From Trichoplax sp. H2 (lineage: Eukaryota): DNA of 30,942 bases. Shown here one piece after another: positions 3,434-30,942 of this stretch. Position 1 is the stretch's first letter. Every line of letters begins with the position of its first letter. The notes beneath the pieces were generated by a model. The model was not told the origin of the DNA, made no database searches, and was given only the letters and a program-made list of their open reading frames with translations. Where the stretch lies: NCBI GenBank assembly GCA_003344405.1, contig NOWV01000186.1:124001-154942 (forward strand), given 5' to 3'. The translations under genes were made by a program, and so were the position numbers.

Positions 3434-6400
3434 TTATAGTTTACTTTGTAATTTCGTTAACTCCGCGACCCGTTTTCTTAGTTCTCGTCTTAATATTTTA
3501 CCACTTGCTGACTTAGGAATAATATCAGCAAATTCAATACCACCTCGTAAATATTTATGAGGGCTAACTTTACTCTTAACAAATTCAATAATCTCTTCCT
3601 TTGATATTTCGCTTTTCTTTACTATAAACGCCATCGGCAACTCTCCTGCTTCTAAATCCGGTCGACCAATAACGGCAGCGTCGGCAATTTTTTCATTAGT
3701 AAGTAACAGTGCTTCTAGTTCGGCAGGAGGCACCTAGTTTAGTAAATATTAGGTTGGATCACGTTAGATTGACCATATTTTTCCCTTGTTACATCATATT
3801 TGTAATTCAAGTAGCAGCATTCAATATATTCTATTTGTTAGACCTGAAAGCCTTTGTACTTAATTAATTCCTTCAAGCGATCGACTATGTAAAAATACCC
3901 ATCTTCATCGTAATATGCAATATCACCAGTGTGCAACCAGCCATCTTTATCAATGGTTAATGCAGTAGCTTTTTCATTTCGAAAGTATCCTTTCATAACC
4001 TGAGGCCCACGTATACATAATTCTCCTCTTTCATGCTGTGGTAGTGATTTTCCATCCTCATCTACAACCTATTACCCCAAAAAGAAAAATGATTATATAG
4101 ATGATCAATTTCTCAATCAAATTTATTAAATTAATAAAACGCAGGATATGACTTCCAGTAGTTATAGATAATATAACAAGGTAAAATTATCTGTAGAGAT
4201 TCTAGACAAACCTTAGCTTTCGTATTAGGAGCACAAACTCCAATGGCTCCAAATTTCTTCTCGTCAGCTCTTTTGACTAAATGAGAGATAGGGCTAAGTT
4301 CCGTCATACCATAAGCTGTAATAAGCAAATAAAGTTGAGGCTACATCTGAGATACATTAAGTAAAATGTTTCTCATTAAAAGGTACGAAATTAAATACCT
4401 TGGCGTAATAATGATATCTTTGCTCGCTCTTTAACACTTTGACTGAGATCTGAGTCAAGTGGAGCTGCCCCACATATGGTTTCCTGCAGACTAGATAAAT
4501 CAAATTTTTCTACCAAAGGATCCTTAGCTAAAAATACGTATAATGGTGGGACTAGGCAGGCATACTTGATCTGATGCGTAGCGATGAATCGGTATAAAAA
4601 GTTGTATAATTAATAGTTGTAGAAAGGAGAATTAAGAGTTATTTTGTTTATACGATGTTATCTATTTTCAGTTTTTAGATACCTTATATTTTTGAATGGA
4701 TCCCAAAAAGAGCTCCGGTTCAAATCTTTCTAAGCTTATTAGGTGCGCACCAGTTCTTAGCCCAGATAAAAGGATAACAACTAATCCATAGATATGATAC
4801 CAAGGCAGTAATCCTAAGGACGGGCGGTCATTATCGAAAGCTTTGATATCTGGATGCATCAGTTGCAGAGAATTTGCAATTAGATTGTAATGTGTTAGCA
4901 TAACACCTAAAACAGTGAAAGAGATAGATGGGTTAGTGTTTTCTAATAGGAAACCTTTCAATATATTCATGCCAATTCAGATCATAAAGCAATGGCTCAG
5001 AGCTTATGTACAATACTAAGCATTTGTAGTTTTATAATCTGTAATGATTAGGTAATGATATAATTTTACATGCGAATAATTCTAAACCTATGTACGAATA
5101 CATTGCATGTATATGATAGCACAATTGAGGAACAGCCTAATACCTTTAGGGATGCCAGTTGTCCCGCTAGAATAAGGAATTACAACAGTATCTTGCATTG
5201 GTCGGATTGTGTCATCCATTTTAAAGAATGAGCCATCATCTTTCATTAGTTCGTTAAAGGACTTTAATCCCTTAACGTGACCAAACACATAAGCGCCTCT
5301 TAATCGTCTGCGAAATGCCAAAGACAGATTTTAATAGGTTGTGAATGTTAATATGGCAATTATGTTACGCCTATAATCCTACGAGTAACCTATGAATCTT
5401 AATGGGGTAGTTTAAATTTATTACTTACATTATTCAGTTTAGTGATATTAACAGCAGCTCTATTAGCCTAATTTAAATTATCCTTTTATTAAATAAATGA
5501 CTGTCACAAAACTATTTAAGAATTTATACCTGATTTGTACACGATTAAGAAATTGTATGCATATTGCTATTGCTTTGTAAGACTTTAGTATATAACGTTA
5601 GATTGAATATACTCATTATCAATACTTACATCCTGGAGGTAACTTTCAAGGCTACATCGGCGTTGGTTGGATATGCAAACAAATACTGTGCAGACGATAA
5701 CTTCATCTGCTTGGTCACTTCATCAGCAGTATATAAGGGGTTGATAGTTGTGACGATGCCGCCAATGGCTGTAACCGCTAACAAGAGAACGGCATATTGA
5801 GGATGATTTGGGCTGAAGAGAGCTAAAATATCGCCTTTCTTAAATCCTAGTCGTCGCAATGCGGAACCACATTGGCGTATTTGTAAGCCCAAATCTCTAT
5901 AAGACAGCGTTTGTGCAGTGGCAGCATGCGTCTGTAGGTATAAATGGATTAATTTTACGAATGAGAAGAAGAAATATACCTCGTATGATTACTATGCAAT
6001 GCATATATAAATGTTATATGCACATATTATAAACTGTAGAATGATGAATTAGATGATTTACGTGTAATACATAGTCCAAGGTACACTGTAATACTAATCG
6101 TATGTATTAAGTGAAATAATTCATGTAATATTTTATGGCTGTAATGGCAAAGCCATAGAGAATATTTTCAGTATTGTCATAGTTAACTTATATCATTAGC
6201 CTTTGCATTTTTAGTTAAGATTTAGTCATAGACAGTAGTACAATGGATAAGTAGTATGTAGAGATTACAGGTGGAGTAGATCCATATTGATTGCGATACA
6301 AGCAGTAAAGCAATCGTTGACAGTATATACTGAGATCCAAATGTATAATAAAGTTTGCTACTAGTAGTAATTAATAAATTAAACGTGTAAGACTCTTTGC

Positions 6401-10588: not shown

Positions 10589-13500
10589 ATGTCTGATATT
10601 GAAGAATCACAAGAGGAATGTACACAATCTCCGCCAGAGGAATGTACAGGTACTACGTAGTGCATTTATACTGAACTGTCTGAGTATTTACACTTTGCAA
10701 ACAGTAAACGATGCTCATTTCGTTAAGGTTAAGAGCAAGGTTTGCAAAAATCAGTCTACTACATGTTGATTAGAGAGGACATGACAGTACGTGATTAGCA
10801 GTTTAATAATTATCGTTACAACAGGATATTTACTATAATATCATGTGGCAGAATCATGACAACATGATATACACTGTATATTATACAGTAGAGTCATGAT
10901 TTCTACTAGAAAAATTCTACAATAGGCTGTTATGAGAGATAATTATGGCTTACCTAAATTAGGTTACATTAACCATCAATCATTTGTTAATAAATTGAAT
11001 ACGATTTTAATATCCTAAACTGTTCGATCATGTATATAGTAAAGTGTGTGATCTTACGCACTGATCATTAACTAAATTACTACATAAAAGGTTTTCGCTA
11101 TCGACTGCTCACTGGTAAATTAACCACTGTCCAATAAAATAATCTCTACGTTATTTCTTGATGGTAGATGGCCACAATTAAAATAGACATGGACTACTAG
11201 ATGCACTTACCTAGTAGTCCATGGTATAGACTACAGTTTTATACTTCGCAGGAGCGGTTTTTTCCTCAACTGATTACGTATTTTATTGATAGATCAATCA
11301 TCAACAGTTGAAGCTTCGGAATTAACTGCAGAAGATACAAGCGATAAATTTGATGACAATGAACAACCTCTAGAAGAAGAACAGGTATCTTCCGAAGAAG
11401 CAGCGACTACTGAAGAACAAATAAATGAAGAACATGATGTATCCGAAGAAGCAGTCGAGGTTGAAGCGGAAGAGGAATCCCCAAATGAAGATTTAACGCA
11501 AACAGACGTTGCTGGAGAATTGGAACAACCTGTTCCTCAAGATTCTTGTGAAACTGCAACTTCTGTTGAACAATCGGATGAACATCAACAGAACGGCACA
11601 GTATCGAGTGAGTTCGTAGCTGCTGAAGAAGAGAACAATAATGAAGCTACTGAAATAACTAACGAAGATCAATCACCAACGGATCAAGTTAATACTGAAG
11701 ATTTAACAGAAAATAATTTATCGGATGAACCACTAGTAGTCTCTGAAGAGTCAGAGGTTCAAGAACTTTCTGAAGATTCGACCGAGGAACAAATTCCCTC
11801 TGAATCTGCAAGGGCAGATATTGAAGAGAAATTACCTGTCGAAGAAACAACTGAGGCTGTAAGCAATGAAGGGCAAATATCTTCAATGGAATCAACCGAA
11901 GATGTCAAAATTGACGAGGTATCTGATGAAGAAAAAGCTATAGAAGATGAGGGACAAACACCTGTTGAAGATGCTGATGAAATCCTAGAAAAAAATGAAG
12001 AAACTATAGAACAGATACCGGATGAAGAAACAGCTGAAGTTGTCAAAGTTGAAGAAGAAGTACATTCAGAAGAATCGGCTGAAGCTACAGAAACGAAAGA
12101 ACATATATCTAGTGAAGAAGCAACCGAAATAGTAGAAGTTGCGGAACCTTCGAAAGAATTGACTGAAGCTACAGAAGCGGAAGAGCATATATCTGATGAA
12201 GCAACTGAAATTGTAAAAGCTGAAGAACAAGCACCTTCGGAAGAACCAACTGAAGCTACAGAAATTAAAGAGGATGCATCTGATGAAGAAGCGGAAGAAC
12301 CGGCTGAAGTCGTACAAGCAGAAGAACAAATAACGTCAGAAGAACCAGCTGAAATTGTAGAAGCTGAAGAACAAATAACTTCAGAAGAACCAACTGAAAT
12401 CGTACAAACTGAAGAACAGATAACTGCAGAAGAACCAACTGAAACCTTAGAAGCACAAATAACTTCAGAAGAACCAGCTGAAATTGTAGAAGCTGAAGAA
12501 CAAGTAATTTCAGAAGAACCAGCTGAAATTGTAGAAGCTGAAGAACAAATAACTTCAGAAGAACCAGTCGAAGTTATAGAAGCAGAAGAACAGACACCTA
12601 GTGAAATAGACGAAACCACAGAACGAATACCTTCAGAAGAGTCAGCTGAAGCTGTAGAAACCGAAGGACAGCTATCTGGTGATGAAGTAGCCATCATTTC
12701 GGAGCCAACACTAGCTAAAGAATCAGGAGAAACTACAGAAATCGAAGTACAAGCAAATGATAAAGAAATACCCGAAGCTGCAGAAGACAAAAGGCAGACT
12801 CCATCATCCGAAGTCATAGAAGATCAAGAACAGATATCCTATGAAGAAACGATTAAAGCTACAGAAAGTGAGGTAGCTGCTGAGGAATTGCATGAAAATC
12901 TTGAATCTGAAGAACAGGTACCCGTATCTAGTGAACTAACAACGGAAGTTGTGGAACCTGAAGAACAAGCACCTAAGGAGGAATTAACCGAAGCTGCAGA
13001 AACTGAAGAACAGATAGCTGTATCTAGTGGAGAAATAACTGAAGCTGCAGAACCTAAGGAACCAGTTGAGGTTGCAGAGACTGAAGAAATGGTACCTGTA
13101 TCTAGTAAAGAAATAGCTGCAGTTGTGGTACCTGAAGACCAAACACCTGAGAAAGAATCTGTTGAAATTATAGAAATTGAAGAACAGACACCTACGGAAG
13201 AATCAACTGAGACTGCAGAAATTGAAGAACAAGTACATACAAAAGAATCAGCTGAAGTTATTGAGATTAATGAACAATTGTATGATGAAGGAGCTACTGA
13301 AGAACCAGCTGAAGAGGTAGAACTTAGTAAAGAAACAGCTCCTGTAAAATCGTCTGAGGTGATAGACTCTGAAGAACAAACACTTCCTAAAGAAGCCATT
13401 GAAGAGCCAGTCATGGTTACAAGTGAGATACAGCCTGAGGATGAGCAAGGCAGTCAAGAAGTGACAACGGTGGCTGATAATAACAAACAAATGGAAGTAA

Positions 13501-14406
13501 ACGAAATTAAGGCTGAAGAAACAGTTGAGACTTCATCTCGTCAGCAGTTATCAGACGTAAATAGTAATGATAATGATAAAGAAGTGACAATAAATGGAAA
13601 GACAGACTCATTGGTCGTAGGTAAAAAATTATTATTTAAGACCGTATAATGAAATTTGAGCAGATAGTAGAATTACTATTTTACTAGCTTGTATGATAAC
13701 TATCGATGTCGTTTTAAAAAGAATAAGGGTCAATGTAGAAATTTTAAGTCTTGATAGCTTCACGACTTTACGTCACTAAACTTAGAATGAAATTGAACTT
13801 TTTTTCGTTTAGTCCTCGTATTAAAAATTTTAGTTTCTAAAATCTCTACAGCTCTTCGCAATAATACGTGTAAACACAGACTTTAGCGGTGTTTTAGGCT
13901 TCAATGAAGGCAGATACGTAGGATAAAAAATGGCTATATTCTTAATCGTTTATCTATTAGTAGCAAAAGAATCACAGTCTGCAGATCACAAGACAGCTAC
14001 TACGATATCAAAAGCTAATAAAGAGCACTCACCTCAATCTGTGGCAACAGCAGGTAGATTATCTAGAATTTATAACATTTAGAAATTGCTATTACGTAAA
14101 GTAATATTACTGTCGCCTTTCCGATTGAAGGCTTTTACACTCACTCTTATAAGATGATTCTATTTTGTTGATGTCAATTCTCAGATGCTAGAAATCTGAA
14201 TTATTTATGTCCTATGACACTTCACTAACAAACACTTATGATATTGTCTGTCACTGCTCTTAAATCATGAAGATTCGAGAGAGAAAAATACAGATTCACA
14301 GGAATCAGGTGCTACTGGTTACCAAAAACGAGAGAAAACACCCAGCAAATCTAGAAGAAAATCCATTAAGAAAGCATTTGTAAAATTATTTAAAAGATCG
14401 CAATAG
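10589..14406 (+). CDS. Glu-rich, low-complexity repetitive protein of unknown function (~871 aa) with basic amphipathic C-terminus
   Basis: Phase-1-compatible exons 10589-10649 (MSDIEESQEECTQSPPEECT), 11293-13620 (bulk of the 787-aa ORF), 13961-14053 and 14273-14406 (ends SRRKSIKKAFVKLFKRSQ*). The large exon is secure. The terminal exon uses an AAG acceptor; an alternative CAG acceptor at 14184 would give a different short tail. Confidence 0.8.
12295..12602 (+). repeat. coding 45-bp (15-aa) tandem repeat EEPAEIVEAEEQITS, ~7 well-conserved copies with degenerate copies on both sides
   Basis: EEPAEVVQAEEQITS / EEPAEIVEAEEQITS / EEPTEIVQTEEQITA / EEPTETLEAQITS / EEPAEIVEAEEQVIS / EEPAEIVEAEEQITS / EEPVEVIEAEEQTPS. 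Confidence 0.9.
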
Positions 14407-16728: not shown

Positions 16729-17093
16729 GAGATTTCGGCCTCATTTGGAAGAAAGAGTCTGTCCGTCCGCACCGTGTCCATGCCATACAGTTAAGAGACT
16801 TAACTCTATAATACTGTACAGTGTACAGTATGGCCCAGTCCGATGATGAGATTTCGGCCTCATTTGGAAGAAAGCGTCTGTCCATCCGCACCGTGTCCAT
16901 GCCATACAGAGACTTAACTCTACAGTACTATACTGTACAGTGTACAGTACAGTACAGTACTGTATGGTCCAGTCCGATGATGAGATTTCGGCCTCATTTG
17001 GAAGAAGGAGTCTGTCCATCCGCACCGTGTCCATTCCATACAGTTAAGAAACTTAACTCTACTGTACAGTGTACAGTATGGTCCAGTTTGATG
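16729..17093. repeat. palindrome-rich tandem repeat, 3 copies (119 and 134 bp spacing), upstream of CTR9 copy 1
   Basis: gagatttcggcctcatttggaagaa.g.gtctgtcc.tccgcaccgtgtccat.ccatacag starts at 16729, 16848 and 16982. Units differ mainly in the number of (tacag/tactg) subunits. Confidence 0.95.
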
Positions 17094-17303: not shown

Positions 17304-17347
17304 ACGCATGCGCGATAATTCTACCTCTAAAAATCAAAATGGCTGGA
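17304..17347 (+). promoter_or_regulatory. putative CTR9 proximal promoter motifs: NRF1-like site and YY1/Kozak-like motif at the start codon
   Basis: acgcatgcgc at 17304-17313 (GCGCATGCG core on the minus strand); caaaATGGCtgg at the start codon, mirrored by caaaATGGCtgcc in copy 2. Motif match only. Confidence 0.35.
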
Positions 17348-20300
17348 ACGACTTCTGTTGAGATTCCTTTACACGATTCCGATGAGGTAAACGAGTAATT
17401 TTGCTTAATTATGATTCCAACGACCTCGATTTTACCTTTTATTCTTCGATCTGTCTTTCATGCCAATGCTATTAGTCGTAGCAGTAACAAGAACGACAGA
17501 ATACGATTCCGTTATTCTAATGTTTGAGAATGTAGTCAACACGAATGGATGCATATTGTATCAACGCAGTAATGCGGTTTCAGTCATCAAAATTAGCATA
17601 GTCTAAACTAGTCTAAACATCAGTTTTGAATTGCTTATTTACACTATACTAGATTGATTGTGTACTAATAGAAAGCTATCTTTTGCAATGCACGGATTAA
17701 AGTCCTCATTTTGTAGCTGGAGTTTATTTAAAACATAGACAATGTCATTCAACCGGTTACATACTGTACAACTCCCCATGATAGGTAATCGAATTGGATT
17801 TCGATCAACTTCCTGATGGTGGTGAATGCCTCGCAATCCTGAAAGAAGAAAGACCCCAACTTCGTATATGGAATGTTCTAGCTGTAAGTAGGATTGATTT
17901 AGTTGATCGAATGGTGATATACGACAACATTGATCTTATCCTACCCATAATTGCGTAACATTTTTACAAGTTTTCGTTGATTCTTCATGCAATTGACGTA
18001 CTGTATTCTCAGCAATTTGTTGTGAAACGTTTTCCTCCTTACCTTACTTGTTTACAAGATTAAATCCTCTTTTGTTTATCATTGCATATGTGCAGCAACA
18101 GTATTACAAACTAGGAGAGCAAGATGCTTTCTTGTCTATGTTGGAAACTGCTACGACAGGTTAGTAAATTGCTGTGTTATACTGTAAATGCCCTTTGTCT
18201 CCTTGTGTTTGTAATAGTATGGATTAATGATGCGTTCATAAATGGCAGAAGCGACAATGAGCTACGACGATAGCGATAAAGACTTGATGACAACTTTAGA
18301 TAGTTTAGCCAACTACTACGTAGAATTGGGCAAAAAAGCAAATAATAAAGATCTAACGAGAGATTATTTTGCCAAGGTTGGGTTGCATTACACTGTATAG
18401 TGTATATCTTGATTAATTAAAAATTCATTTTTGGCAATAGTTATTAGTGCTATAATTTTTCTACAAGCGGCTCAGAATTCATAAACTAAAAATTTCGCTT
18501 ATATTTACTAAATGAATATCTACTGTTAAATTACTTGTGTAGGCCGCTCAATTGTTTGGTAAAGGCGACAAAATTATCATGCATCACGAGGTTATTTCTT
18601 GTTTCTCATCGGCAAATAATTTGCGTATTCATCGATCGCTAGAATTCAGCGTCATTGAAATAATTCCACAATCTATCACTATAATCTCATTGTTTCTATT
18701 TGTTTCTATTTTAATTGATATTAAAATCGTGATTGATGAGATGTGTGTAATAATAGGGGCATTTAGTAAGTCGTGGATGTTTTTACCTGGCTGATGGAAA
18801 ATTGGAACAAGCTGAAACACAATTCAATTTCGTTCTGACGCAAGTAAATTCATAGCATAGTAATGATATTGATATTATTGGTCTTTAGGTTACACCCATG
18901 TCTTACTAAAAGCAGTAATAGCGGTGCAATATATTAAACTATGTTATTATTACCCTTCCCTTATTCCAGTTAAACAAGCAAAATCCTCCAGCCTTATTAG
19001 GTATTGTTATGCTGGATAATATGAATGCCTTCATATTTATACTGTAAAAATGGTCAATTAAATTTACTTGCATGCCGGAAAAATTTTTATTACTATAGGC
19101 AAAGCTAGTATACTTTTCAGTCGAAAGGATTATAACGGTGCTCTTAGCCTATATAAAGAAGTTTTAAAATTAAAGCCGGAGACATGTCGAGGTGTTAACG
19201 TGTATCACTTTTGATACTTGAATACCGTATTGTTTTGTATGCAATCGATATGTTAACACCCGCTTTATTATCAACTTTACAGCTGATGTTCGTCTAGGAA
19301 TTGGACATTGCTATGCAAAGCTAAACAAACTCAACTTGGCAAGGTAAGCCTGAGTCTTTAACCACATTTACTGATCTCATGAGATATACATAAAGTGGCA
19401 CAGTTGCTAAAGTATAACCAATAAACGTTATAATAATGCTATTATCTTTTATATATTTTCACTGACAAAAAATTTCGTAGGCGAGCATTCGAAAGAGCAT
19501 TACAACTCGATCCTAGATGTGTTGGAGCGATGGTTGCTTTAGCTGTTTTGGAACTGAACAATAACAGGGTAAATGCAATAGTTCTATTTTATTTACGGTT
19601 AATTCAAATTCAAATTTGCTAATTTCGGTAATGACAAATTTAGAAACGATAATATACATGATAAGTTTGATATGATGCATAAATGTGCAGTATTTACACT
19701 TAACATTTAAAAATTTTTTATAGGCTGAATCTATTAGGAATGGGGTTGATTTATTATCACGTGCTTATACAATCGATCAAACAAACGCTATGGTGTTGAA
19801 TCACCTAGCCAACCATTTCTTCTATAAAAAAGATTTTAATAAAGTTCAACATTTAGCTCTACATGCTTTCCATAGTACGAACGTCGAACCTATCCAAGCC
19901 GAAAGCTGCTATCAACTAGCTAGAGTTTTCCATTCGATGCAAGATTACGATCAAGCTTTTAAATATTATTATCAAGCTACTCAATTTGCCGATAGTAATT
20001 ACGTTTTACCACATTTTGGTCTAGGCCAATTATATCTTACTCGTAACGATTCAGCTAATGCGGCTAGTTCATTTGAAAAAGTACTTAAAGTCCAGAGTGA
20101 TAACTATGAAAGTATGAAAATTTTAGGATCTATATATGCACGCTCTAATAACGAAGAAAAGCGAGAAAGAGCTAAAATTTTATTACAAAAAGCAACCACT
20201 CAACATCCTGACGACATAGAAGCTTGGATTGAATTAGCAGGTATACTAGAAGGTTCAGATATTCAAGGGGCACTTTCAGCATATGGTACATCTTCACGAC

Positions 20301-23252
20301 TTTTACAAGAGACTCTTGAAACCGATATACCTCCAGAAATATTAAACAATGCAGCTGCATTACACTTCCAGTTAGGTAATTTTTTAGAAGCTATGAAAAA
20401 CTTTAGTGCCGCATTGGAACGAGCTAAATTAGAAGCAAACGAATCAACCGAAGGTTCATCTTATTTCAATACTATATCAGTTACTATAACATATAACGTC
20501 GCTCGTTTACACGAAGCATTGTGTGAACATGATGAAGCAGAAAAGTTATATAAGCAAATCCTTAAAGATCATCCTAATTATATCGATTGTTATCTTCGAT
20601 TGGGATGTATGGCTCGCGATAAGGGTCACTTTTATGAAGCTTCAGATTGGTACACCGAAGCACTTGTTATAGAAAGGGAGCATAAAGATACATGGTCTTT
20701 AATTGGAAATTTACACATGATGAAGCAAGAATGGGGTCCGGCCCAGAAAAAGTACGAGCGTATTTTAAATCAAAACAAAGACGATACTTACGGTCTTGTA
20801 GCTATGGGAAATATATGGTTACAGACATTATATCAACCTACAAAGGACCCAGACAAGGTTTTAAAAATCGCGAGTTGTAATGAAATATTAATACCTACTG
20901 TATTTTAATAAGAGCCATATTGATGTTACTTATTTTTTATATTATACTAGAATAGACGTCATCGCGATCGCGCGTTGAGTCTATATAAGCAGGTAATTCG
21001 ACTCGATCCACGAAATATTTATGCCGCTAATGGTATCGGTGCCGTATTAGCACAGAGTAGTTTTCATCAAGAATCTCGAGAAATTTTTGCTCAGGTAGAT
21101 TAATATAGAATTATTGATTTGTAATTTAATAAGTTTACAAAGTTTTGAAGTTAATATACAATGTATTACTGTACTTTTAATAGGTCCGCGAAGCTACTGC
21201 CGACATGTTCGACGTATGGCTAAATCTCGCTCATGTTTACACTGAACAGAAGCAATATTCGACAGCAATTCAAATGGTACTCAATAATTTAGCATTGCTA
21301 TATCGAGTTTGATAGTGACGAAGATGAAAATTAGTGTCATTTTAGTATTGCGAAAATTTAACCAGCTATGTGATGTAATTTCTTTTAGTATCAGAACTGT
21401 ATCAAGAGGTTCGGAAAGAATCAAAGTACGGAAGTACTGCTATATCTAGCTAGAGTATTCTTTAAGGATGGTAGATTACAAAATTGTAAAAGTGCTCTTG
21501 TTAAGGTAATAAACAATTGCTCGATCATGTTTGTACAATGCAATTGCTATAGATTCGAAATTGTAATAGCCTTTGACGCTTTTAAAAATAATGGATTAAA
21601 ATTTAATTACAACCTTAGGCCTGCCACGTTGCCCCGCAGGAAACCCTACTCTTGTTTGACGTTTGCTTAGTCTTACAGCGTATAGCAACAGTTTCTCTAA
21701 AAGATGAAAATAGTAACCTCAAGGACGTTCAAGAAGCTGTTGATCAACTAAAATTAGCTCACAGGTGCTGCCATTGAGTAAAAATAATTCTTACATGATG
21801 TAATTGCTAACGATTCTTAAATTTACAGATACTTTACATTTTTGAGTAAAGTCGGAGACAAATCGAAATTCGATCTTAATCAGGCTCAATTGGAAGCACG
21901 GTATAGTTTATAATAAATACAGTGTATAGAATTAATATTGGTGTCAGTAATTAAGAAAATCCTTTCTTTTACTTGGTATCACAGCCAATGTGTAGATCTA
22001 TTAAGCCAGGCTAAGTATCATGTGTCCAGGGCAAAGAAGAAGCAAGATGAAGAACTTGAATTAATTCGTAAGCAGGAGGAAGAACACCAAGCCTATCTAG
22101 AGAAAAGAAAGGCTGAAGAGGTTGGTTTGATTACCGTGAACCACATTCTAGTTTGTTGCCAAGAGTAATTTAAATGTTCAAATAGATACAACGCCAAAAA
22201 GAAGAGGAAGTAAAGAACAAGTCCATTAATGAAAAACGTAGCCAATTTATTGAAGCGACCAAGAAACTCTTAGTTTTTGAAGCGGATACTTCTAGTGCTG
22301 CGAAAATTTCGGGTCGCCGAGCTAAGGTATGAATACTTTAGATAATGTAGCTCGAGCTCATATAACTGTTGTCCGATGCAGATACTGTATGTAACGTTAA
22401 ATAATTTTATTGCTCTTGATCAAAGAAACAAGATGACGATTTCATAAGTGATGGAGAGCAGAGTGAAGAAGACGTTACTGAACCTAAGCCTAAACGGTAT
22501 CTTCTAAGTTTAATTTTAATCTATTTGTGTAAGTATTTAGGCGATTAATATTATTTTATGCTCATAATAGCAAAAAAGCGAAAGACAAAGGTGTTCGAGT
22601 CAAAAAACGACCGCGAAAACGTAAAGCACCGGCTGCAGTCAAGGAAAGGTCTGCCAGAAAAAAACGTAAAGCTATTTCAAAAGAAATTATTTCGGATATC
22701 TCAGATAGTTCTGACGCTGATGACTCCGGACAGTTACATATTGTTGGTGAAGATGAGTGAGTTTTAATGACGTTAATGATATGAATTAAAAAGTTGATAT
22801 TATAGCTGCCTTAGATTTTACCTTAGAAAGAAGATGCTTGTGCTAAATCTTTTCCTATTTCTGTGTATATAATAAATAGAGAGGAATCAGATAAATCTAA
22901 TCTTTCGGATGAAAAGGAAGCAAGCTTTTCTGAAGAAGAAGATGAAGATGATGATGAAGTAGATTTTTCGCCACCGAAGGAAACTTCTACCAAGAGAAAG
23001 CAACGTAATATGATAGCAGAAACGGTGGATGAATCAAGCTTGTTAGGTGATGAAGACGAAAATGTAGCACCATCTGTTAGAAAATCTCTTAGGGCAACTA
23101 CAAATGCATTATTCTCATCTTCGTAAGTATCATTATAAAATATCGAATATTTTCTTTATACCTTCGGCTAATATTAATTTGTAGTCGTATTACTGAAGAT
23201 AAGTTGGTAATGTTATATTATGCAATGCATTTACTTTAGGGATGAGGATTAA
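17339..23252 (+). CDS. CTR9: RNA polymerase II-associated PAF1 complex subunit CTR9 (TPR scaffold), copy 1, 1080 aa
   Basis: 22 GT-AG exons with consistent phase: 17339-17386, 17785-17883, 18096-18159, 18249-18376, 18543-18590, 18757-18843, 18970-19000, 19099-19191, 19283-19343, 19481-19568, 19724-20857, 20951-21094, 21184-21276, 21389-21505, 21619-21764, 21829-21900, 21985-22120, 22186-22326, 22426-22496, 22571-22756, 22880-23122, 23240-23252 (3243 nt). CTR9 hallmarks: [98 protein letters not shown], and an acidic/basic disordered tail. Confidence 0.96.
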
Positions 23253-23692
23253 TATGATCACAAAGTCCAATAACATCACCTTAGAATGCTAGAGTATCCT
23301 ATCGTTCATTCATCCATCATGACGATCTTGAATTATTGGCTAATAAAAGTTATGAGCTATTGCCGTGCGAATATTACATGACTGTAAAAAATCCATTGCA
23401 TGAAAAGTGGGTATTTTTATTTTTAAATTTTCATGGGTAAATTGCTTGAATTGATATCAAACCTACCGATAAGTAAGAATGATATCATCAACATACGAGG
23501 TAAACTTTGACTGCGATAACTTGTGCTTTGTGCCGTGGATCGACCACTTCTTAGTTTTTAGATATTTTTAAATGAAACCCCCACTAAATACGCAAATATC
23601 AATGTCGCGTTGTGGTAAGCAGCAGCCATATTGGTAAATATTGCAATAATAAATACGTGTATCTTTTAAATGGAATAGAATGCAAACATTCG

Positions 23693-23717
23693 ATATATAT
23701 ATATATATATATATATA
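23693..23717. repeat. (AT)12 microsatellite
   Basis: Uninterrupted AT dinucleotide run. Confidence 0.95.
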
Positions 23718-24223
23718 GTATTTAAAACTTAAATTTTATGTGGTAAATATTTGTAAAAAGCATGAAACTCAATCTTGTATCACTGTCTGTAAAAAATTGT
23801 GCACTTTTGTCGTTATAAAGTTCTTATTCATTTGTGAACTTGATGTATTTGCTCTTATTACTGATCTATATTTTCCGTATCTTCCTTCTATTATGGTAGC
23901 ACGTATTGTTAAAGATTGTAGCATACCTTGATTACTTTTATAGAGCTACGCAATATTATAATGTCTGACAAAATGAGTAATTTATATCTACAATCTGATG
24001 TAGCTCTTCAATTGAAATACGCAATAAAATTTGGCACCTATAGATATTTTATAATACATATCATAATGATTTATTGATAGTCTGCGCGTATTATTTTACC
24101 AACAGAAAAATTCTCTTTCAATCTTCAATTTAAGCTTCACAAATGCTTCACTAATAGTAAAGATTTTTTTTAAATCTCCATTTTTAGCGTCACAGTCTAT
24201 GTCATAATTAAGCATATAATTAG

Positions 24224-24290
24224 CACTATGGTACAAATTCGGCAACATGGAGTATGATATACTCCATGTTGCCGAATTTTGTCCATAGTG
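24224..24290. repeat. 67-bp near-perfect inverted repeat with CACTA...TAGTG ends (possible minimal CACTA/EnSpm-type foldback element)
   Basis: Perfect 21-bp arms aaattcggcaacatggagtat (24235-24255) / atactccatgttgccgaattt (24259-24279) with a 3-nt loop, extended by cactatgg/ccatagtg. Confidence 0.8.
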
Positions 24291-24878
24291 TATAATACGT
24301 AGAATCATGGGCGCTCTTAAATATTTTCAAAGCAATAAAGACCTCTTTAAATCTCCATTTTTAGTTTCATAATCCCTATAGTAGCGGAGTGTAAGTAGAA
24401 GACTCATGCAGAAAAGATCAATTAGAATTTCATTTCATTTCATGTTGAACTTCATGTGCATCGCTCATGCAGAGGAAGTCTTTACTGTACTAATCATTGC
24501 ACTGAAGTTATAAATAGTTTCTATGCTGGTGCAATGCTGCAGACTATACCTTATTCTGTACAAGTTTACTAAACCTTAATTAAGTTAGGCCTATGAACTT
24601 AAGATAAAAATCTGCATTTATTATAATATTTAAAAAGGTCCGTGTAAGCTAGTCTGTCATTAGCCACCGTTTTCATTACAACTCAATGAATTAAATCTCC
24701 ATTTTTAGCTTGATGAGAGCCGTGTATAGTCGTTATATTTTTATCATACATAGTACAGTAAGGTATTGCAAGATTTTTCAATATATTGCATTATTTTACT
24801 GTTATTAAAAAAGATTGCTACATGGTGACTTTTGACGAAATCTCCTATGTTAGTAATGTCTAGTAATACGCGTACAAT

Positions 24879-25165
24879 TTAGGCGGATTACTCCAGTCTA
24901 CCGTTGAGCTTTTTTTTCTCCTTTACTCATAATAATTTACAATTAACAGAATCCCGTCTTACTTGTATAGTGCTTTTGTATTTAATTATCGGAATATTAG
25001 CCCATTCGACTTTTAAATAAATTATATTAGGCGGATTGCTCTAGTCTACCGTTGAGCTTTTTGCTCCTTTGCTCATAATAATTTGCAAGTAGCAGAATCC
25101 CGTCTTACTTGTATAGTGCTTTTGTATTTATTTGTCGGAATACTAGCTCATTCAACTTATAAATC
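24879..25165. repeat. 148-bp tandem duplication (2 copies)
   Basis: ttaggcggatt.ctc.agtctaccgttgagc starts at 24879 and 25027; identical core cagaatcccgtcttacttgtatagtgcttttgtattta. Confidence 0.9.
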
Positions 25166-25394
25166 GATTAATAATAATAGTACAGTATATTTAGCAGTCC
25201 AAACAGCACATCTACGCAAAATATGACGAGTGAGACATTATCCGTATACCTTGGTAAAAGGTTCGAAATCTTTCCAATACAACTGCGTTTTCTGATACCG
25301 CATATCAAAGAAATGGACAGCAAACAGGATTTGTAGGGAAATCAAAAACGTTGATAGGAATTACTACAGCATAACCAGCACTTTTGTTGCACCG

Positions 25395-26510
25395 GGGTAG
25401 AAGCCATTTTATTGCAATTTTTTACAGTCAATCCAATTGTAGGCCAAGTGAATCAAACGGTAGAAGGCATTTTAATGCTCAATATCGAATTTATTCATCA
25501 TAAAGACAATTTTTGGATCAATAATATAATGTAACTTTTTTTATAGTTAATCCGGTAGAGTATGGTAAACTAAGCAGGTTCTACTGTTTTACAGTAAAAT
25601 ACAAAAATAGATTGAGCAGGGGCCAGTAAGTGAAAGAAATGGATTAAGTAGACCAAATGGTATAAGGCATTTTATTGCCCAATTTTTCAATGATCTACAG
25701 TCACTTTTCTAGTTATTCTAATGGTAGTCAAAACGGACCAGTAAAGAAAGGAATGGACTAAGTAGATCAAATAGTATAAGGTATTTGATATCCCAATTTT
25801 TCAATGATCTACAGTTAATCTGTTGCACTGTAATGGTAGACAAAGCAGACCCGTCAATGAAAGAAATGGACAAAGTCTATCAAATAATTTAAGGCATTTT
25901 ATTGCCCAATTTTCAATGGTCTACAGTCACTTTTTTTTTATTGTTAATCTAATGAGAGACAGAGCAGACCAGTAAAAGAAAGAAATGGACTAAGTCGATC
26001 AAATAGTATAAGGCATTTTATTGCCTCATTTTTCAATGGTCAACTTTCACTTTTTTTACAGTTAATCTACAGTCATGGTAGACAGAGCAGACCAGTAAAA
26101 GAAAGTAGTGGATCAAGCGAGCCAAATCCTAGGTACAATTGATTTGATTCGGTATAAGCAATAAGGTATTTCAATCTGTTGTACTGTAATGGTAGACAAA
26201 GTAGACCAGTAAATGAAAGAAATGGTCTAAGTCGATCAAATAGTTTAAGGCATTTTATTGCCTCATTTTTCAATGGTCAACTTTCACTTTTTTTTACACT
26301 TAATCAACAGTAATGGTAGACAGAGCAGATCAGTAAAAGAAAGTAGTGGATCAAGCGAGCCAAATCCTAGGTACAATTGATTTAGTTCGGTATAAGCAAT
26401 AAGGAATTTCATTGCAACCATTTTGGATCAATAATTATAATTAATTAATTATTAATACTGTATAATCAGTTTTTTTTTACACTTAATCCAATATGGAGGA
26501 CCAAGCAGAA
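25395..26510. repeat. ~112-124-bp tandem repeat array (>=7 units) with A/B higher-order structure, upstream of CTR9 copy 2
   Basis: Units beginning aatggtag.ca.agcagacca-like at 25720, 25832, 25951, 26074, 26188 and 26312, with degenerate units from ~25395. Units at 26074 and 26312 share gtagtggatcaagcgagccaaatcctaggtacaattgattt. Confidence 0.9.
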
Positions 26511-26874
26511 GCTACTTAGCCATTACACGGTGTACCGTCCTGTCATAGTACTGTAAGCACCACTTAGTATGCGCAGTTGCGTAGGCAGAATACACACCTG
26601 ATTGCAGTAGCTCAAAAAGTCAAGTTGCCAGGTATGAAATTGAATGATTAACTGCTTGGAGCTAGTGAGAAATTGCACCAATTTTTCCCCATTTATGATT
26701 GTCGAGGAAAAGGAAAGCTCTAATATTATCGTTTCAGTTTATTCTGATAGATCAGGCTTGTATCAACTACGGTAGAAGAAGAAGGAATTATTGCGTAGTT
26801 TTGGTGGCACCACGTGCTGTCGCAATCACCGATTGAATCAATAGCGCTTACTTGGATCGAAATAAAAATCCAAA

Positions 26875-29800
26875 ATGGCTGCCGTCAACTACATTGAAAT
26901 CCCCTTACGTGATTCAGATGAGGTAAATGATTGCTGTAATTTAGCTCTTTCATTATTGTAGAGGTGTTTGTACTTATGTTCTATCTCGGTGAATGCATCG
27001 TATACGTATTAGAGATGCATTGAATAAAATATATCAGAAAAGGTTGAAATTTTCCGATACTGGATGTCATTCAATTTTGGAGAGTTATAGAATAATTATA
27101 ATTCAATTCGTTCATAGTACATTCTATGCAGTCAACGGTATAGAATGATCCATACTTTAGCTACAGCTATGCATTCATCATAGTAATTTGGAAGTGGCTT
27201 TCTCTTATAATGGTAGACCTTCGTTCTCACTTCCCGTCCATCGATCTATCTACGGTATCTTGATCGATTGATCATCCTGTACCAACCACGAAAGAGTATA
27301 CGAGTATCCTATAGAAACATTGTAATGGATGTTCAACAGGTTTACAATCTACAAACACAAAATCATCCACGTCCATTACTAGCCAACTTGTACGATTACA
27401 GTACTGTAGATCAAAAATACCTGGTGAAATACGAATTTCTAACTAACAACGCGGCATTAAGAAAACTCTCTCTTTTATCCGAAAGTGAAACCGTGTATTA
27501 TTAACTATTCTGCAGCATTACCTTAGCAACCGTTAGTGTAAAGTTAGTCGACAAACTGTAGGGATTCATGAGCACACTTTAGAAAATCAACATAATGTAT
27601 CTCAATACGGCACTATGTACTAAGAAAATTGTTCCACGTATACGCGTTGATCATAGTTTGTGGACTAGACATAACCTTGGAAAGGCAGCTTTAGCCAACT
27701 TTGAAAGGAAGTTATTTTACAACTGTAGGTATTCATTATTACGTTACTGTACTTTCTATGTATCTGAATGTATTTTAACCAGATGAGAATAATAGAGAAA
27801 TTGTAATAAGTCTCCATATATTAGCTCATTACGCTTCTATGATATGTATATGTATTATATCACATATACGAATATATGTATACGTTGGTATAGCCATAAA
27901 ACTGCCAAAGAAGCTTATTGTAATTATTAACTGTAGGTATTGATTGCTATTTTACACTCTATGCATTTTAATCAACTTTAAAGTATTACTCGTATGTGCA
28001 AAATGAGAATGATAAATATCAGCTCAGATGTCTCCATATGGCTGTAATCTTACAGTATATCAATATAGGTGTATTATAATGGAGTTCTAGTATTTATTGT
28101 AGTTTTAAATTGCCAACCTAATGTAGCTTGATCTTGCAATTGTAGCCATTTTGCTCAACTATACAAGTCGTATCTGTTGCAGCTCATGGTTCGTAAACGT
28201 GAGAGCAACATACAATTGCCATACTTTATAAATATTGTAATGCACATGCAACGTATTTATAATATCCGATTGATTGTACGTCCATAGTGCGCGCATTTCT
28301 GCGTCGGTAGTACAATGTAATTCTTACTATAGCAGCTTCTAATGCGGTTTTACTTTACAGCAGTAGATTTTGGGTTATTTCGTTTTAACCATAATAGTTA
28401 ATCCATCAGAATCGAAATAAAGAATATATAGTATTTATTAAATACATTGCAATTATATGGAATAAGCCTATAATCTCCGTCAACTGATCTATGTGCGGTA
28501 TACTTGTTTAGTAAGACTACATTTTTAAACATATTATTCCAATCTGTAAAAATTGAATAGGTCATCGAATTAGACCTTAATCAGCTTCCTCATGGTAACG
28601 AATCGTTGGCAATCTTAAGAGAAGAACGGCCCCAATTGCGTATATGGAACATCCTTGCTGTATGTATGAGTTATTCATTGGATGGCAATTGCCCATTTAC
28701 ATCTCGTTCTGATAGTGTTAGCCACACAGATCTCATTACTTGATATAAATCTGTTACCGCTATTATTATCATAGATAATAACGTGTAGTTATAATTTATA
28801 CTTGAACGGCAAGTGAATTAGACGCGTATATATACAGTATATTAATGTTATCCAACGGGAATACCTTTAGCAACAATACTACAAGCACGGTCAGCAAGAT
28901 GCATTTTTATCCGTATTAGAAGCCGCTGTTGAGGGTAAGTCTCAATGCTATTACTAATTTTGAAGGAATAGTATGCAGCAACATCACGTCTTTATCAATA
29001 TATCGAATAACAAAGTTAAACATATTAATAATTGCATTAAATGTATCCCATACGTTAACTAATTTTTTGGCTAATGGCAGAGGCAGTAGTAGACTATCCT
29101 GATAGTGATCGAGACTTGATGACATCATTGGATAGCTTGGCAAATTATTTTGTTGAACTAGGCAAGAAAGCTAGTAATAAAGACCTTACTAGAGAGTTTT
29201 TCGGAAAGGTTTGTTTAGTATTTATACTGCAACCATACGAGTTCGCCCAGTTTTTAAGGGCTAATTTTCTTAATTCATTTTGCTAAGGTGTATGACAGCA
29301 TTGAAATCCTAACTTAAAAAAATGGCCTTTTTAAATTAAATTTTATATAGTATTAATGAGATGATTGCAATCTTTGATTACCTGTGTAGGCTGCCCTACT
29401 GTTTAGTAAAGGCGATAAAATCATCATGCATCACGAGGTTATTGATAGCTACTAATATCGTATATAAACTGAATCGTTCATTTGCTAGTTTAAAAAAGCG
29501 TAAAAATGACTCACAGTTTGCAAACAATGCATTTCGGAAATATACAGTAGATAACCTTATATTGTAATTCTTTTAATCCATTAACTAAATTATTAAATTC
29601 CTATACAAACTTTGCCAAAGGGCCATCTCGTAAGCCGAGGGTGGTTTTATTTAGCTGATGGAAAATTTGAACAGGCCGAAGCACAGTTTAATTTCGTTTT
29701 AACCCAAGTATGACTATTAAGCATATACGCCGAGTGAATATGCATCACGTATTTATCTTATTGTTTCTATTTACTTGTAAAACACATAATTAAATCATCT

Positions 29801-30942
29801 GGACTAGACTAATTTTTATTATGTTCCTATCCCTTATAGCTGAATAAAAAGAACCCACCAGCATTACTAGGTCGTGAAGTAAAAATGATAGATTTCGAAA
29901 AGTTTAATATTATACACTGAATACTCAGAATTTTATGCCTTACTTTAATCAAAAAGATTTTCAAATTCACCTCGATATCTAATTCTATGTGCAGGCAAAG
30001 CTACTATACTATTTAATAGGAAAGACTACAATGAAGCTCTAAACCTATACAAAGAAGTCTTGAGATTGAAACCAAAGACATGTCCAGGTACTAGATCAGC
30101 TACAATTGTAAAAATTTTAGAGTTAGCAAACGAAATTGTTACTGCATTAATCAATTAAGAATTGACCTTTGAAATTGCAGCAAATGTTCGTCTAGGAATT
30201 GGCCATTGCTATGCAAGATTGAATAAATTTGATTTAGCCAGGTTGTCAATAGTAAAAGAGTTATATCGTAAATGATAGTAAGATAGTAAAGGAAAACAAG
30301 TTGTTTGGTTGATGTGGTTGTAAATAGGTGCATCATTACTATGGTATATAGACAGTGTACCATCTGCTTAACTTTTTTATACTAAAAGGAGGTTGTTGAC
30401 TGAACGTCATTAATATAATTCTTAAGACAAGCATTTGAAAGAACATTACAGCTCGATCCTAAATGTGTCGGAGCAATGGTTGCCTTGGCTGTTTTAGAAT
30501 TAAACACAAAAGTGGTATATATCCCGATTTAAACCCTTTATACTGATGATATCATAAAGTTTTAAAAGGAAAAAGTAGCACGTTGTGTTAAAATTTTTTT
30601 AGTATTCATTTTTGTTTCCTTATACTGTGATATTATTGAAATATTGACAGATTGATTTGATTTTAAATATCTAGGCTGATTCCATCAGAAATGGAGTCGA
30701 TTTATTATCACGTGCTTATACAATCGATCAAACAAACGCTATGGCTTTAAATCATCTTGCAAATCATTTCTTCTACAAGAAGGATTATGATAAGGTTCAG
30801 CATTTAGCTCTACATGCTTTCCATAGTACGAACGTCGAACCTATCCAAGCCGAAAGCTGCTATCAACTAGCTAGAGTTTTCCATTCGATGCAAGATTACG
30901 ATCAAGCTTTTAAATATTATTATCAAGCTACTCAATTTGCCG
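26875..30942 (+). CDS. CTR9: CTR9 paralog, copy 2 (tandem duplicate), 5' part; runs off the window in exon 11
   Basis: Exons 26875-26922, 28561-28659, 28871-28934, 29081-29208, 29390-29437, 29621-29707, 29840-29870, 29995-30087, 30181-30241, 30427-30514 and 30675->30942. Exons 1-10 have the same lengths (48, 99, 64, 128, 48, 87, 31, 93, 61, 88) and phases as copy 1, with no stops or frameshifts. Starts [26 protein letters not shown]. Confidence 0.93.

What the first reader, a model, noticed from the sequence alone, without database searches (positions are those of the whole stretch)
17339..30942. Tandem pair of diverged, apparently intact CTR9 paralogs: possible alternative PAF1 complexes
Seen: two head-to-tail CTR9 genes whose start codons are ~9.5 kb apart, with identical exon sizes and phases, essentially unalignable introns, many synonymous changes and 53 amino-acid differences in 249 codons of exons 1-10 (~79% identity, hand count). 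Copy 2 is largely missed by the ORF track because of its small exons. Differences concentrate in exons 1-4 (30 of the first 113 codons). Established: CTR9 is the TPR scaffold of the PAF1 complex and is single-copy in most animals; germline-specialised PAF1C paralogs are described in Drosophila. Inference: this is an old duplicate kept under purifying selection, possibly giving a cell-type-specific PAF1 complex that arose independently in this lineage.
Basis: partly seen in the sequence, partly recalled or inferred. Interest (0 to 1): 0.75.

Follow-up and report, generated by a model that had tools for sequence, protein, structure and literature searches.

The report
Tandem pair of CTR9 genes
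This animal genome carries two neighbouring genes for CTR9, the scaffold of a conserved transcription elongation complex; both look functional, and they have drifted far apart at the front end while still copying sequence from each other further along.

Summary
Two head-to-tail CTR9 genes start 9,536 bases apart (17339 and 26875). Exons 1-10 have identical sizes and phases, and all visible introns are GT-AG. The introns do not align. There are 53 amino-acid differences in 249 codons, 30 of them in the first 113.

Synonymous sites in exons 1-10 are saturated and dN/dS is about 0.11. Both copies lie equally far from 16 other animal CTR9s. Both keep the known PAF1-contact residues.

Copy 1 is a complete gene of 22 coding exons and 1080 aa, fully spliced in three RNA-type runs. 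Copy 2 shows only low-depth cover whose pattern fits its exons.

Stretches as diverged as exons 1-10 alternate with perfectly identical tracts of 46 and at least 141 bases. This points to gene conversion, so copy 2's open frame there is not independent evidence of selection.

Copy 2 beyond base 30942 could not be retrieved. The idea of an alternative PAF1 complex remains untested, and the pair differs from the Drosophila testis paralogs in origin and in rate of change. Verdict: a real, old, unannotated paralog of moderate interest.

The parts
17339..19568 (+). Copy 1, coding exons 1-10 (17339-17386, 17785-17883, 18096-18159, 18249-18376, 18543-18590, 18757-18843, 18970-19000, 19099-19191, 19283-19343, 19481-19568). 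They encode residues 1-249, the PAF1-binding N-terminal TPR module.
   Evidence: The translation is identical to P0001 residues 1-249. All 10 introns appear as GT..AG joints in contigs of runs X12, X8 and X10. P0001 residues 5-255 align to PDB chain 5zyq_A, the CTR9(1-249)-PAF1 fusion.
19724..20857 (+). Copy 1, exon 11 (1134 nt), the central TPR array.
   Evidence: It is one long open frame. It hits Pfam TPR families and matches human CTR9 chains at E = 9e-182. RNA contigs cover 19723-20855.
20951..23252 (+). Copy 1, coding exons 12-22 (20951-21094, 21184-21276, 21389-21505, 21619-21764, 21829-21900, 21985-22120, 22186-22326, 22426-22496, 22571-22756, 22880-23122, 23240-23252 including the stop). 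The full protein is 1080 aa.
   Evidence: Exons 12-17 come from the splice alignment to P0001. For exons 18-22 only one GT-AG combination keeps the frame open, and its summed length of 641 nt equals the RNA contig's span.
23253..24038 (+). Copy 1, 3' untranslated region.
   Evidence: Contigs of X10 and X8 run to 24038. An AATAAA lies about 15 bases upstream of that end.
20023..20383 (+). Two short patches inside copy 1 exon 11 (20023-20062 with 6 changes, 20328-20383 with 7 changes). Here the RNA contigs of three runs and the model P0001 differ from the window, while the rest of the roughly 4 kb mRNA is nearly identical.
   Evidence: tables 3 and 8: the exon 11 piece has 13 other letters, and each other listed piece of the mRNA has 0-3. 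P0001 differs from the window in the same places. I infer these are conversion tracts, because copy 2 cannot be read at the matching places.
25623..26411 (.). Tandem repeat array (units of 114-119 and 238 nt) in the spacer upstream of copy 2.
   Evidence: Tandem Repeats Finder. Loose ends of contigs lie at 26420 and 26441.
26740..26922 (+). Copy 2, transcribed leader and coding exon 1 (ATG at 26875, exon ends at 26922).
   Evidence: The start context and exon are alike in both copies. A 196-nt contig of RNA run X12 lies on 26740-26924 and leaves 11 letters unplaced. Exon 2 also begins with GT, which explains the 2 extra bases.
26923..28560 (+). Copy 2, intron 1 (1638 nt against 398 nt in copy 1), holding a repeat-like segment near 27729-28020.
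   Evidence: Exon model. Contigs break off at 27915 with loose ends in X12 and X10. A 95-aa frame at 27217-27504 hits no Pfam family.
28561..30514 (+). Copy 2, coding exons 2-10 (28561-28659, 28871-28934, 29081-29208, 29390-29437, 29621-29707, 29840-29870, 29995-30087, 30181-30241, 30427-30514).
   Evidence: The sizes equal those of copy 1, all introns are GT-AG and there is no stop. Nucleotide identity to copy 1 is 66-85% per exon. In X12 the bin depths fit exon-only cover of exons 2-4 at a depth of about 4.5 (my arithmetic).
30675..30942 (+). Copy 2, first 267 nt of exon 11, cut by the end of the window.
   Evidence: The frame is open to the last base. It differs from copy 1 at 4 of 89 residues and is 92.5% identical in nucleotides.
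30801..30941 (+). Tract of 141 bases identical to copy 1 (19850-19990), running to the window end. A second identical tract is 30699-30744 = 19748-19793 (46 bases).
   Evidence: Base-by-base alignment. The longest identical run in exons 1-10 is 19 bases. P(141 identical) is about 4e-19 at the exon 1-10 distance.

Best explanation
The region holds a tandem, head-to-tail pair of CTR9 genes made by an old DNA-level duplication within this animal's own lineage.

Copy 1 is the main gene. It has 22 coding exons, encodes 1080 aa and is well expressed.

Copy 2 has its own start and leader and the same exon plan. Its frame is intact through the 338 codons that can be seen. I take it to be a second working CTR9 scaffold that still binds PAF1.

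The N-terminal TPR module (residues 1-249, the part that clasps PAF1) has diverged by 21% in protein. It is under constraint as strong as copy 1's.

From exon 11 onward the two genes exchange sequence by gene conversion, which keeps the central TPR array nearly the same in both.

The likeliest division of labour is by expression level or place, perhaps together with changed surface residues of the N-terminal cap. A wholly separate complex seems less likely.

Shown: the structure, the divergence, the constraint, the mosaic identity, and full splicing of copy 1.

Inferred: that copy 2 is complete, that it is translated, that it binds PAF1, and that the identical tracts arose by conversion.
For: Structure: exon sizes and phases are identical in 10 of 10 exons, all introns are GT-AG and there are no stops.

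Age: the nucleotide distance in exons 1-10 is 0.26. dS is 1.15-1.33 (LWL85, YN00) and not computable by NG86. The introns are unalignable.

Constraint:
- dN/dS is 0.107 for codons 1-249.
- If all of the divergence had fallen on one neutral lineage, 0 of 20,000 simulated frames stayed open. If half had, 0.5% did.
- Tajima relative-rate tests gave p >= 0.317 with 16 of 16 outgroups.
- Copy 1 matches 108 and copy 2 matches 107 of the 159 columns conserved among the outgroups.
- Of the residues that the paper names as contacting PAF1 or needed for binding it, human K53, P164, R201, A220 and R223 are kept in both copies. K216 is L in both (residues named in PMC6143631).

Lineage-specific origin: the two copies form a clade with 100/100 support and terminal branches of 0.11 and 0.14.

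Gene conversion: all 20 differences in the visible 267 nt of exon 11 fall in two patches. The remaining 46 and 141 bases are identical (probabilities).

Expression: copy 1 is spliced exactly as modelled in X12 (RNA on record), X8 and X10. Copy 2's leader and exon 1 are covered by contigs in X12 and X8. The X12 bin depths over exons 2-4 stand as 0.61:1:1.10, against 0.59:1:1.10 expected for exon-only cover and 0.14:1:0.26 for unspliced DNA (my arithmetic).

Presence elsewhere: the DNA-like run X4, labelled organism B, covers copy 2's intron 1 with few differences.
Against: - Copy 2 is visible for only 338 codons. Everything beyond base 30942 is unknown, so a stop, a frameshift or a truncation downstream cannot be excluded.
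- No protein model of copy 2 exists among proteins of 157-2000 aa in the database.
- The splice joints of copy 2 were not among the 15 joints displayed; 14 more were not shown. Splicing of copy 2 therefore rests on one contig end and on depth arithmetic.
- Pairwise dN/dS averages over the whole history. A recent loss of function would not show.
- Gene conversion can keep exon 11 of a dead copy open, so exon 11 adds no evidence of selection on copy 2.
Confidence: 0.55

Rival explanations
1. Copy 2 is the scaffold of a distinct, cell-type- or stage-specific PAF1 complex that arose independently of the Drosophila testis complex. Its diverged N-terminal module would pair with a different PAF1 or with other partners.
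For: The diverged part coincides with the module that binds PAF1: P0001 residues 5-255 align to 5zyq_A. Passages of PMC13289920 propose that this region's N-terminal cap is a platform for partners outside the complex. Copy 2 is held under strong constraint. Its contig depth is about a tenth of copy 1's in the same runs, which would fit restricted expression, although contig depth is a poor measure. A precedent exists in Drosophila.
Against: None of the six named PAF1-contact or binding-critical residues differs between the copies. The two copies are equally conservative and evolve at equal rates. In contrast, passages of the Drosophila papers describe those paralogs as fast-evolving, with lost domains. 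I could not look for a second PAF1, LEO1, CDC73, RTF1 or WDR61, because no genome is held. The runs carry no tissue or cell-type information.
Confidence: 0.25
2. Copy 2 is a partial or decaying duplicate. It would be truncated or broken beyond the window, weakly transcribed, and kept looking intact in exon 11 by conversion from copy 1.
For: The 3' two thirds are unseen. No protein model was found in the database. Contig depth is low, and X10 shows no cover of exons 1-5. Conversion can mask decay in exon 11.
Against: Exons 1-10 are not being converted; their longest identical run is 19 bases. Yet they have no stop, 20 of 20 splice dinucleotides are intact, dN/dS is 0.107, and copy 2 shows no excess of unique changes. 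In the DNA-like run X4, half-depth variants at 21220-21459 and a contig that leaves copy 1 at 21279, just past exon 13's donor, look like copy 2's exons 13 and 14 laid on copy 1. This is a weak hint that the duplicate extends at least that far.
Confidence: 0.15
3. The second copy is an assembly artefact, such as an uncollapsed haplotype or a misjoin.
For: The identical tracts in exon 11 could in principle come from a collapsed or chimeric assembly of similar sequence.
Against: The exons differ by 26% and the introns do not align. That is far beyond allelic divergence, which is about 1% between the runs and the window. Independent runs from several studies and two organism labels hold copy-2-specific sequence.
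Confidence: 0.03

Closest known systems
Canonical CTR9, the TPR scaffold of the PAF1 complex (human CTR9 in PDB 6ted, 7oop, 9eh1; CTR9(1-249)-PAF1 in 5zyq)
   Same: The TPR array is the same. Exon 11 is about 68% identical to vertebrate CTR9, and P0001 residues 5-901 align to human residues 4-898. The PAF1-contact residues are kept in both copies. Copy 1 has the charged C-terminal tail.
   Different: There are two genes in tandem instead of one. The N-terminal 249 residues are only 52-58% identical to other animal CTR9s. The pair sits on a long stem outside the sampled cnidarians and bilaterians.
Drosophila testis PAF1C paralogs (tPAF; Ctr9t/CG9899, also called Ctr9L), PMC12324932 and PMC11535153
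   Same: Both are a second CTR9 gene kept beside the general one in an animal. The paralog retains the TPR regions used for complex assembly (passages).
   Different: According to passages read, the fly paralogs are likely retroduplicates with few introns, scattered across the genome, 50-100 million years old, fast-evolving with lost domains and testis-specific, and every core subunit has one. Here the duplicate is tandem and keeps 10 of 10 visible introns. It evolves at the same rate as its partner and undergoes gene conversion with it. Its expression pattern and the other subunits are unknown.
Tandem duplicates under partial concerted evolution (gene conversion limited to part of the gene). 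This is a general phenomenon that I recall, not one taken from a call.
   Same: There is a mosaic of perfectly identical tracts within paralog-level divergence. Short patches also differ between strains.
   Different: Conversion seems confined to the long exon 11 and perhaps the exons after it. The ten small exons, separated by diverged introns, have escaped it.

Membership tests
CTR9 (PAF1 complex scaffold) | A long TPR array whose best matches are CTR9 proteins | tested here: met
   Both exon 11 pieces hit Pfam TPR families. Copy 1's exon 11 matches human CTR9 chains at E = 9e-182. Copy 2's 89 residues are 96% identical to P0001 and 81% to vertebrate CTR9.
CTR9 (PAF1 complex scaffold) | An N-terminal module (human residues 1-249) with the residues that contact PAF1 or are needed for binding it | tested here: met
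   P0001 residues 5-255 align to 5zyq_A. Human K53, P164, R201, A220 and R223 are kept in both copies, and K216 is L in both. The residues are named in PMC6143631.
CTR9 (PAF1 complex scaffold) | Full length, with the C-terminal charged tail | tested here: inconclusive
   Copy 1 meets it, at 1080 aa. Copy 2 cannot be read past 30942. Two pattern scans of metagenome contigs found nothing, and no genome is held.
CTR9 (PAF1 complex scaffold) | Physical association with PAF1, LEO1 and CDC73 | not testable with these tools
   The organism's partner proteins are not on hand.
Drosophila-type germline PAF1C paralog (tPAF) | Origin by retroduplication: few introns, dispersed in the genome | tested here: not met
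   The copies lie in tandem 9.5 kb apart, and all 10 visible introns are kept at the same positions and phases.
Drosophila-type germline PAF1C paralog (tPAF) | Faster evolution or domain loss relative to the general copy | tested here: not met
   Relative-rate tests gave p >= 0.317 with 16 of 16 outgroups. The copies match 108 and 107 of 159 conserved columns. This covers the visible 338 residues only.
Drosophila-type germline PAF1C paralog (tPAF) | Germline- or tissue-restricted expression | not testable with these tools
   Only contigs of coded runs without tissue labels could be laid. Contig depth cannot rank genes.
Drosophila-type germline PAF1C paralog (tPAF) | Matching paralogs of the other subunits | not testable with these tools
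   No whole genome is held for this window.
Gene conversion between tandem paralogs | Identical tracts much longer than expected from the background divergence, with sharp borders | tested here: met
   Tracts of 46 and at least 141 identical bases lie between patches with about 25% differences. The longest identical run in exons 1-10 is 19 bases, and P is about 4e-19.
Gene conversion between tandem paralogs | The donor sequence can be found in the other copy for patches that vary between strains | tested here: inconclusive
   The patches at 20023-20062 and 20328-20383 vary between the window and three runs. The matching part of copy 2 lies just beyond the window end.

The most novel reading that the evidence does not exclude
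An animal lineage that sits outside the sampled cnidarians and bilaterians in the CTR9 tree evolved a second PAF1-complex scaffold by tandem duplication, independently of flies. Only the PAF1-clasping N-terminal module, including its cap surface, has been allowed to diverge, under selection. Gene conversion keeps the rest of the protein the same. The result would be two complexes that share a body and differ in one exchangeable module, possibly matched by a second PAF1 gene and used in different cell types.
Probability: 0.2. Interest if true: 0.65.

Novelty: new member of a known kind. Interest (0 to 1): 0.45.

Why it matters
CTR9 is the scaffold on which the PAF1 elongation complex is built. 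In the searches made here, the only CTR9 paralog described in print was the Drosophila testis one.

An independent paralog that keeps its introns and evolves slowly would show that duplicating this core transcription factor is not a fly peculiarity. The pair would also be a natural experiment. The PAF1-binding module differs by 21% in protein while the central array is held alike by conversion, so one could ask what the N-terminal module alone contributes.

More practically, the second gene has no protein model in the database searched, and the model of the first gene is truncated at 911 of 1080 residues. Both annotations need repair.

Tried and rejected
- Whole genome: none is held for this window. 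I therefore could not search for the rest of copy 2 or for duplicates of PAF1, LEO1, CDC73, RTF1 and WDR61.
- Three protein searches found no copy 2 model. The best match other than P0001 was 57% identical in the N-terminal 249 aa and 81% in the exon 11 piece. Only the best 120 hits of each search are listed.
- Two exact-pattern scans of metagenome contigs with copy-2-specific strings found nothing.
- Earlier findings of this scan: three look-ups returned nothing.
- My first greedy splice script failed.
- The first exon model misplaced the exon 5/6 boundary. That made copy 2 look as if it had a GC donor and a lost acceptor. I corrected this.
- Parts of copy 2 without contig cover prove nothing, by the tool's own warning. 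This applies to exon 11 in all three RNA-type runs and to exons 1-5 in X10.
- The depth ratio of about 1:10 between the copies is a weak hint only.
- Rfam and tRNA scans of the window found nothing.
- I considered folding or docking the two N-terminal modules. I dropped this because the spliced proteins cannot be handed to those tools and the organism's PAF1 is not on hand.
- I considered dating the duplication from branch lengths. I rejected it because the lineage's long stem suggests a rate of its own.
Full report
**What is there.** The + strand of 17339-30942 holds two series of CTR9-like exons. The long open frame at 19724-20857 hits Pfam TPR families. It matches solved human CTR9 chains at E = 9e-182 over chain residues 246-622. 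A database model, P0001 (911 aa, source masked, on a 13.26 Mb contig), is identical to copy 1 over its first 338 residues.

**Gene models.** I built copy 1 by splice-aligning P0001, then located copy 2's exons by size and similarity. My first model put the exon 5/6 boundary 10 bases off. This gave copy 2 an apparent GC donor and a CG acceptor. With the boundary used by P0001 and by the RNA contigs (18590|18757), both copies have canonical sites throughout.

Exons 1-10 measure 48, 99, 64, 128, 48, 87, 31, 93, 61 and 88 nt in both copies. The start codons are at 17339 and 26875, which is 9,536 bases apart.

The amino-acid differences are 53 of 249, with 30 in the first 113 and 23 in the next 136. 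The contrast between the two parts is not significant (Fisher p = 0.087).

blastn between the two regions returns 9 alignments. All are centred on exons and run at most about 25 bases into flanking sequence.

**Copy 1 in full.** RNA contigs fix the 3' end. Only one GT-AG combination keeps the frame open through exons 18-22, and its length of 641 nt equals the span of the contig. Copy 1 has 22 coding exons and encodes 1080 aa. Its stop codon ends at 23252 and its mRNA ends at 24038, after an AATAAA. P0001 stops at 911 aa because it reads into intron 18.

**Selection.**
- For codons 1-249, dN is 0.12-0.14 and dS is 1.15-1.33 (LWL85, YN00). NG86 cannot compute dS, so synonymous sites are saturated. 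dN/dS is 0.107.
- The nucleotide distance is 194 of 747, or 0.26. In 20,000 simulations each, random substitution at that level left no stop-free frame. At half that level, 0.5% of frames stayed open.
- Against 16 other animal CTR9s the two copies are equally distant. Copy 1 is 51.8-57.6% identical and copy 2 is 52.2-55.5% identical in residues 1-249.
- Tajima relative-rate tests gave p >= 0.317 with all 16 outgroups.
- Of 159 columns conserved in at least 14 of the 16 outgroups, copy 1 matches 108 and copy 2 matches 107.

Both copies have thus been under similar purifying selection for most of their history. Neither looks like the derived one.

**Phylogeny.** I built a maximum-likelihood tree from the aligned 338 residues, with 18 rows. 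It joins the two copies with 100/100 support. Their terminal branches are 0.11 and 0.14, and a long stem places them outside the clade of two cnidarians and fourteen bilaterians (midpoint root, long-branch caveat). The duplication is therefore lineage-specific. The best named matches to the N-terminal module are an octocoral (57%) and a stony coral (54%). I did not try to name the organism.

**Exon 11 is a mosaic.** This is new relative to the finding. In the 267 visible bases of copy 2's exon 11 there are 20 differences. All lie at offsets 5-23 and 70-125 from the exon start. Offsets 24-69 (46 bases) and 126-266 (141 bases, up to the window end) are identical.

Inside the two patches the density of differences is about 25%, the same as in exons 1-10. 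The longest identical run in exons 1-10 is 19 bases. The chance of 141 identical bases at the background distance is about 4e-19. For 47 consecutive identical third positions it is about 2e-14. Homology stops at the intron 10/exon 11 border.

The simplest reading is recent gene conversion with tracts inside the long exon. The lower dS of this segment (0.24-0.39) is an average over old and freshly converted stretches.

A second observation fits this reading. The RNA contigs of X12, X8 and X10, and P0001 itself, differ from the window's copy 1 almost only in two short patches of exon 11. There are 6 changes in 20023-20062 and 7 in 20328-20383, giving 13 other letters in the exon 11 piece. Each other listed piece of the roughly 4 kb mRNA has 0-3 (tables 3 and 8). 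Such clustered differences between strains look like short conversion tracts copied from a diverged paralog. I could not check the donor, because the matching part of copy 2 begins about 30 bases beyond the window end.

**Expression.** Twenty runs were listed, and 18 of them hold part of the stretch. I laid four of the 20: X4, X12, X8 and X10.

X12 is an RNA library on record. X8 and X10 are RNA by guess. All three carry one long contig of copy 1 (3,235-4,039 letters) with GT..AG joints. Fifteen joints were displayed, all in copy 1, each present in these three runs and absent from X4. X4 behaves like low-depth DNA of a close relative, with unspliced pieces across introns.

For copy 2 the evidence is thinner:
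- A 196-letter contig of X12 (depth 4.3) lies on 26740-26924. Its remaining 11 letters do not continue into the intron. Exon 2 starts with the same two letters as the intron, which explains the overhang of 2 bases.
- X8 also covers this leader, with depth 5.7 at 26811.
- The X12 depths of the three bins spanning 28160-29554 are 0.64, 1.05 and 1.16, a ratio of 0.61:1:1.10. A contig covering only exons 2, 3 and 4 predicts 0.59:1:1.10. Unspliced DNA predicts 0.14:1:0.26. This is my arithmetic on table 2.
- The implied depth is about 4.5, against 47 for copy 1 in the same run. The tool warns that contig depth is a poor measure of expression.

I conclude that copy 2 is probably transcribed and spliced at a low level in at least two runs, but this is not proven.

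**Does copy 2 go on?** I could not read it past 30942. There is one weak hint. In the DNA-like run X4, half-depth variants at 21220-21459 sit in copy 1's exons 13 and 14. A contig there leaves copy 1 three bases past exon 13's donor (loose end at 21279) and continues with sequence only loosely like copy 1's intron. Contigs of copy 2's own exons 13 and 14 would behave this way when laid on copy 1.

**Comparison with what is known.** The diverged part equals the crystallised human CTR9(1-249) fragment that binds PAF1(57-116). P0001 residues 5-255 align to 5zyq_A. Of that paper (PMC6143631) I read passages and all of section 8. The residues it names as contacts or as needed for binding are K53, P164, R201, K216, A220 and R223. 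None of them differs between the two copies: five are conserved, and K216 is leucine in both.

[quoted passage not shown] Several of the 53 differences lie in the first 35 residues. I did not map them onto a structure.

PMC12324932 (abstract and passages) and PMC11535153 (abstract, outline and passages) describe testis paralogs of the core subunits, including a Ctr9 paralog. For PMC6405060 (tPlus3a/b) I saw only the search listing. According to the passages I read, those paralogs are likely retroduplicates with few introns. They are dispersed, 50-100 million years old, fast-evolving with lost domains and testis-specific.

The pair here differs on each point that could be tested. It is tandem, all visible introns are kept, rates are equal, and gene conversion is present.

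Two full-text searches found no CTR9 paralog in print other than the Drosophila one. The first used 'Ctr9', 'paralog', 'Paf1 complex' and 'duplication' (143 papers, 20 listed). The second used six phrases such as 'Ctr9 paralog' and 'two Ctr9' (11 papers, 10 listed). Subscription journals and supplements were not searched.

**Verdict.** The part of the interpretation about an old duplicate under purifying selection is supported for exons 1-10. The idea of an alternative complex is open and gains nothing from the sequence beyond the position of the divergence. The gene-conversion mosaic and the equal rates are the main additions. The finding is a real, unannotated second CTR9 gene. It is a new example of a known kind of event and of moderate interest, pending the downstream sequence and proper expression data.

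Noticed in passing
window 22327-22332 (copy 1, start of intron 18): The database model P0001 (911 aa) ends by reading into intron 18 up to a stop. RNA contigs and the only frame-keeping splice solution give a protein of 1080 aa with four more coding exons.
   Followed up: yes
window 11274-13649 (+): A 791-aa open frame, extremely rich in glutamate and built of loosely repeated acidic units. It has no Pfam match. The base composition there is strongly skewed, with AT skew up to 0.45.
   Followed up: partly
window 1902-2351 (-) and 3434-5988 (-): Exon-sized frames of a patatin-like phospholipase gene and of an AMP-binding (acyl-CoA synthetase or luciferase type) gene lie on the opposite strand, upstream of copy 1.
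   Followed up: partly
window 24597-24655: A roughly 60-base AT-rich segment in the spacer after copy 1. Contigs of all four runs reach it and then run on into unlike sequence on both sides, at high depth in the RNA-type runs. It is probably a short dispersed repeat. It has no Rfam or tRNA match.
   Followed up: partly
window 16729-16949, 24879-25164 and 25623-26411: Three tandem repeat arrays (units of 119, 146 and 114-238 nt) flank the two CTR9 genes. The largest lies just upstream of copy 2's leader.
   Followed up: no
window 17314: In RNA run X12 the copy 1 contig carries 13 letters before 17314 that do not match the genome. This could be the remains of an adaptor or a 5' leader added to the transcript. 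It was seen in one run only (table 7).
   Followed up: no
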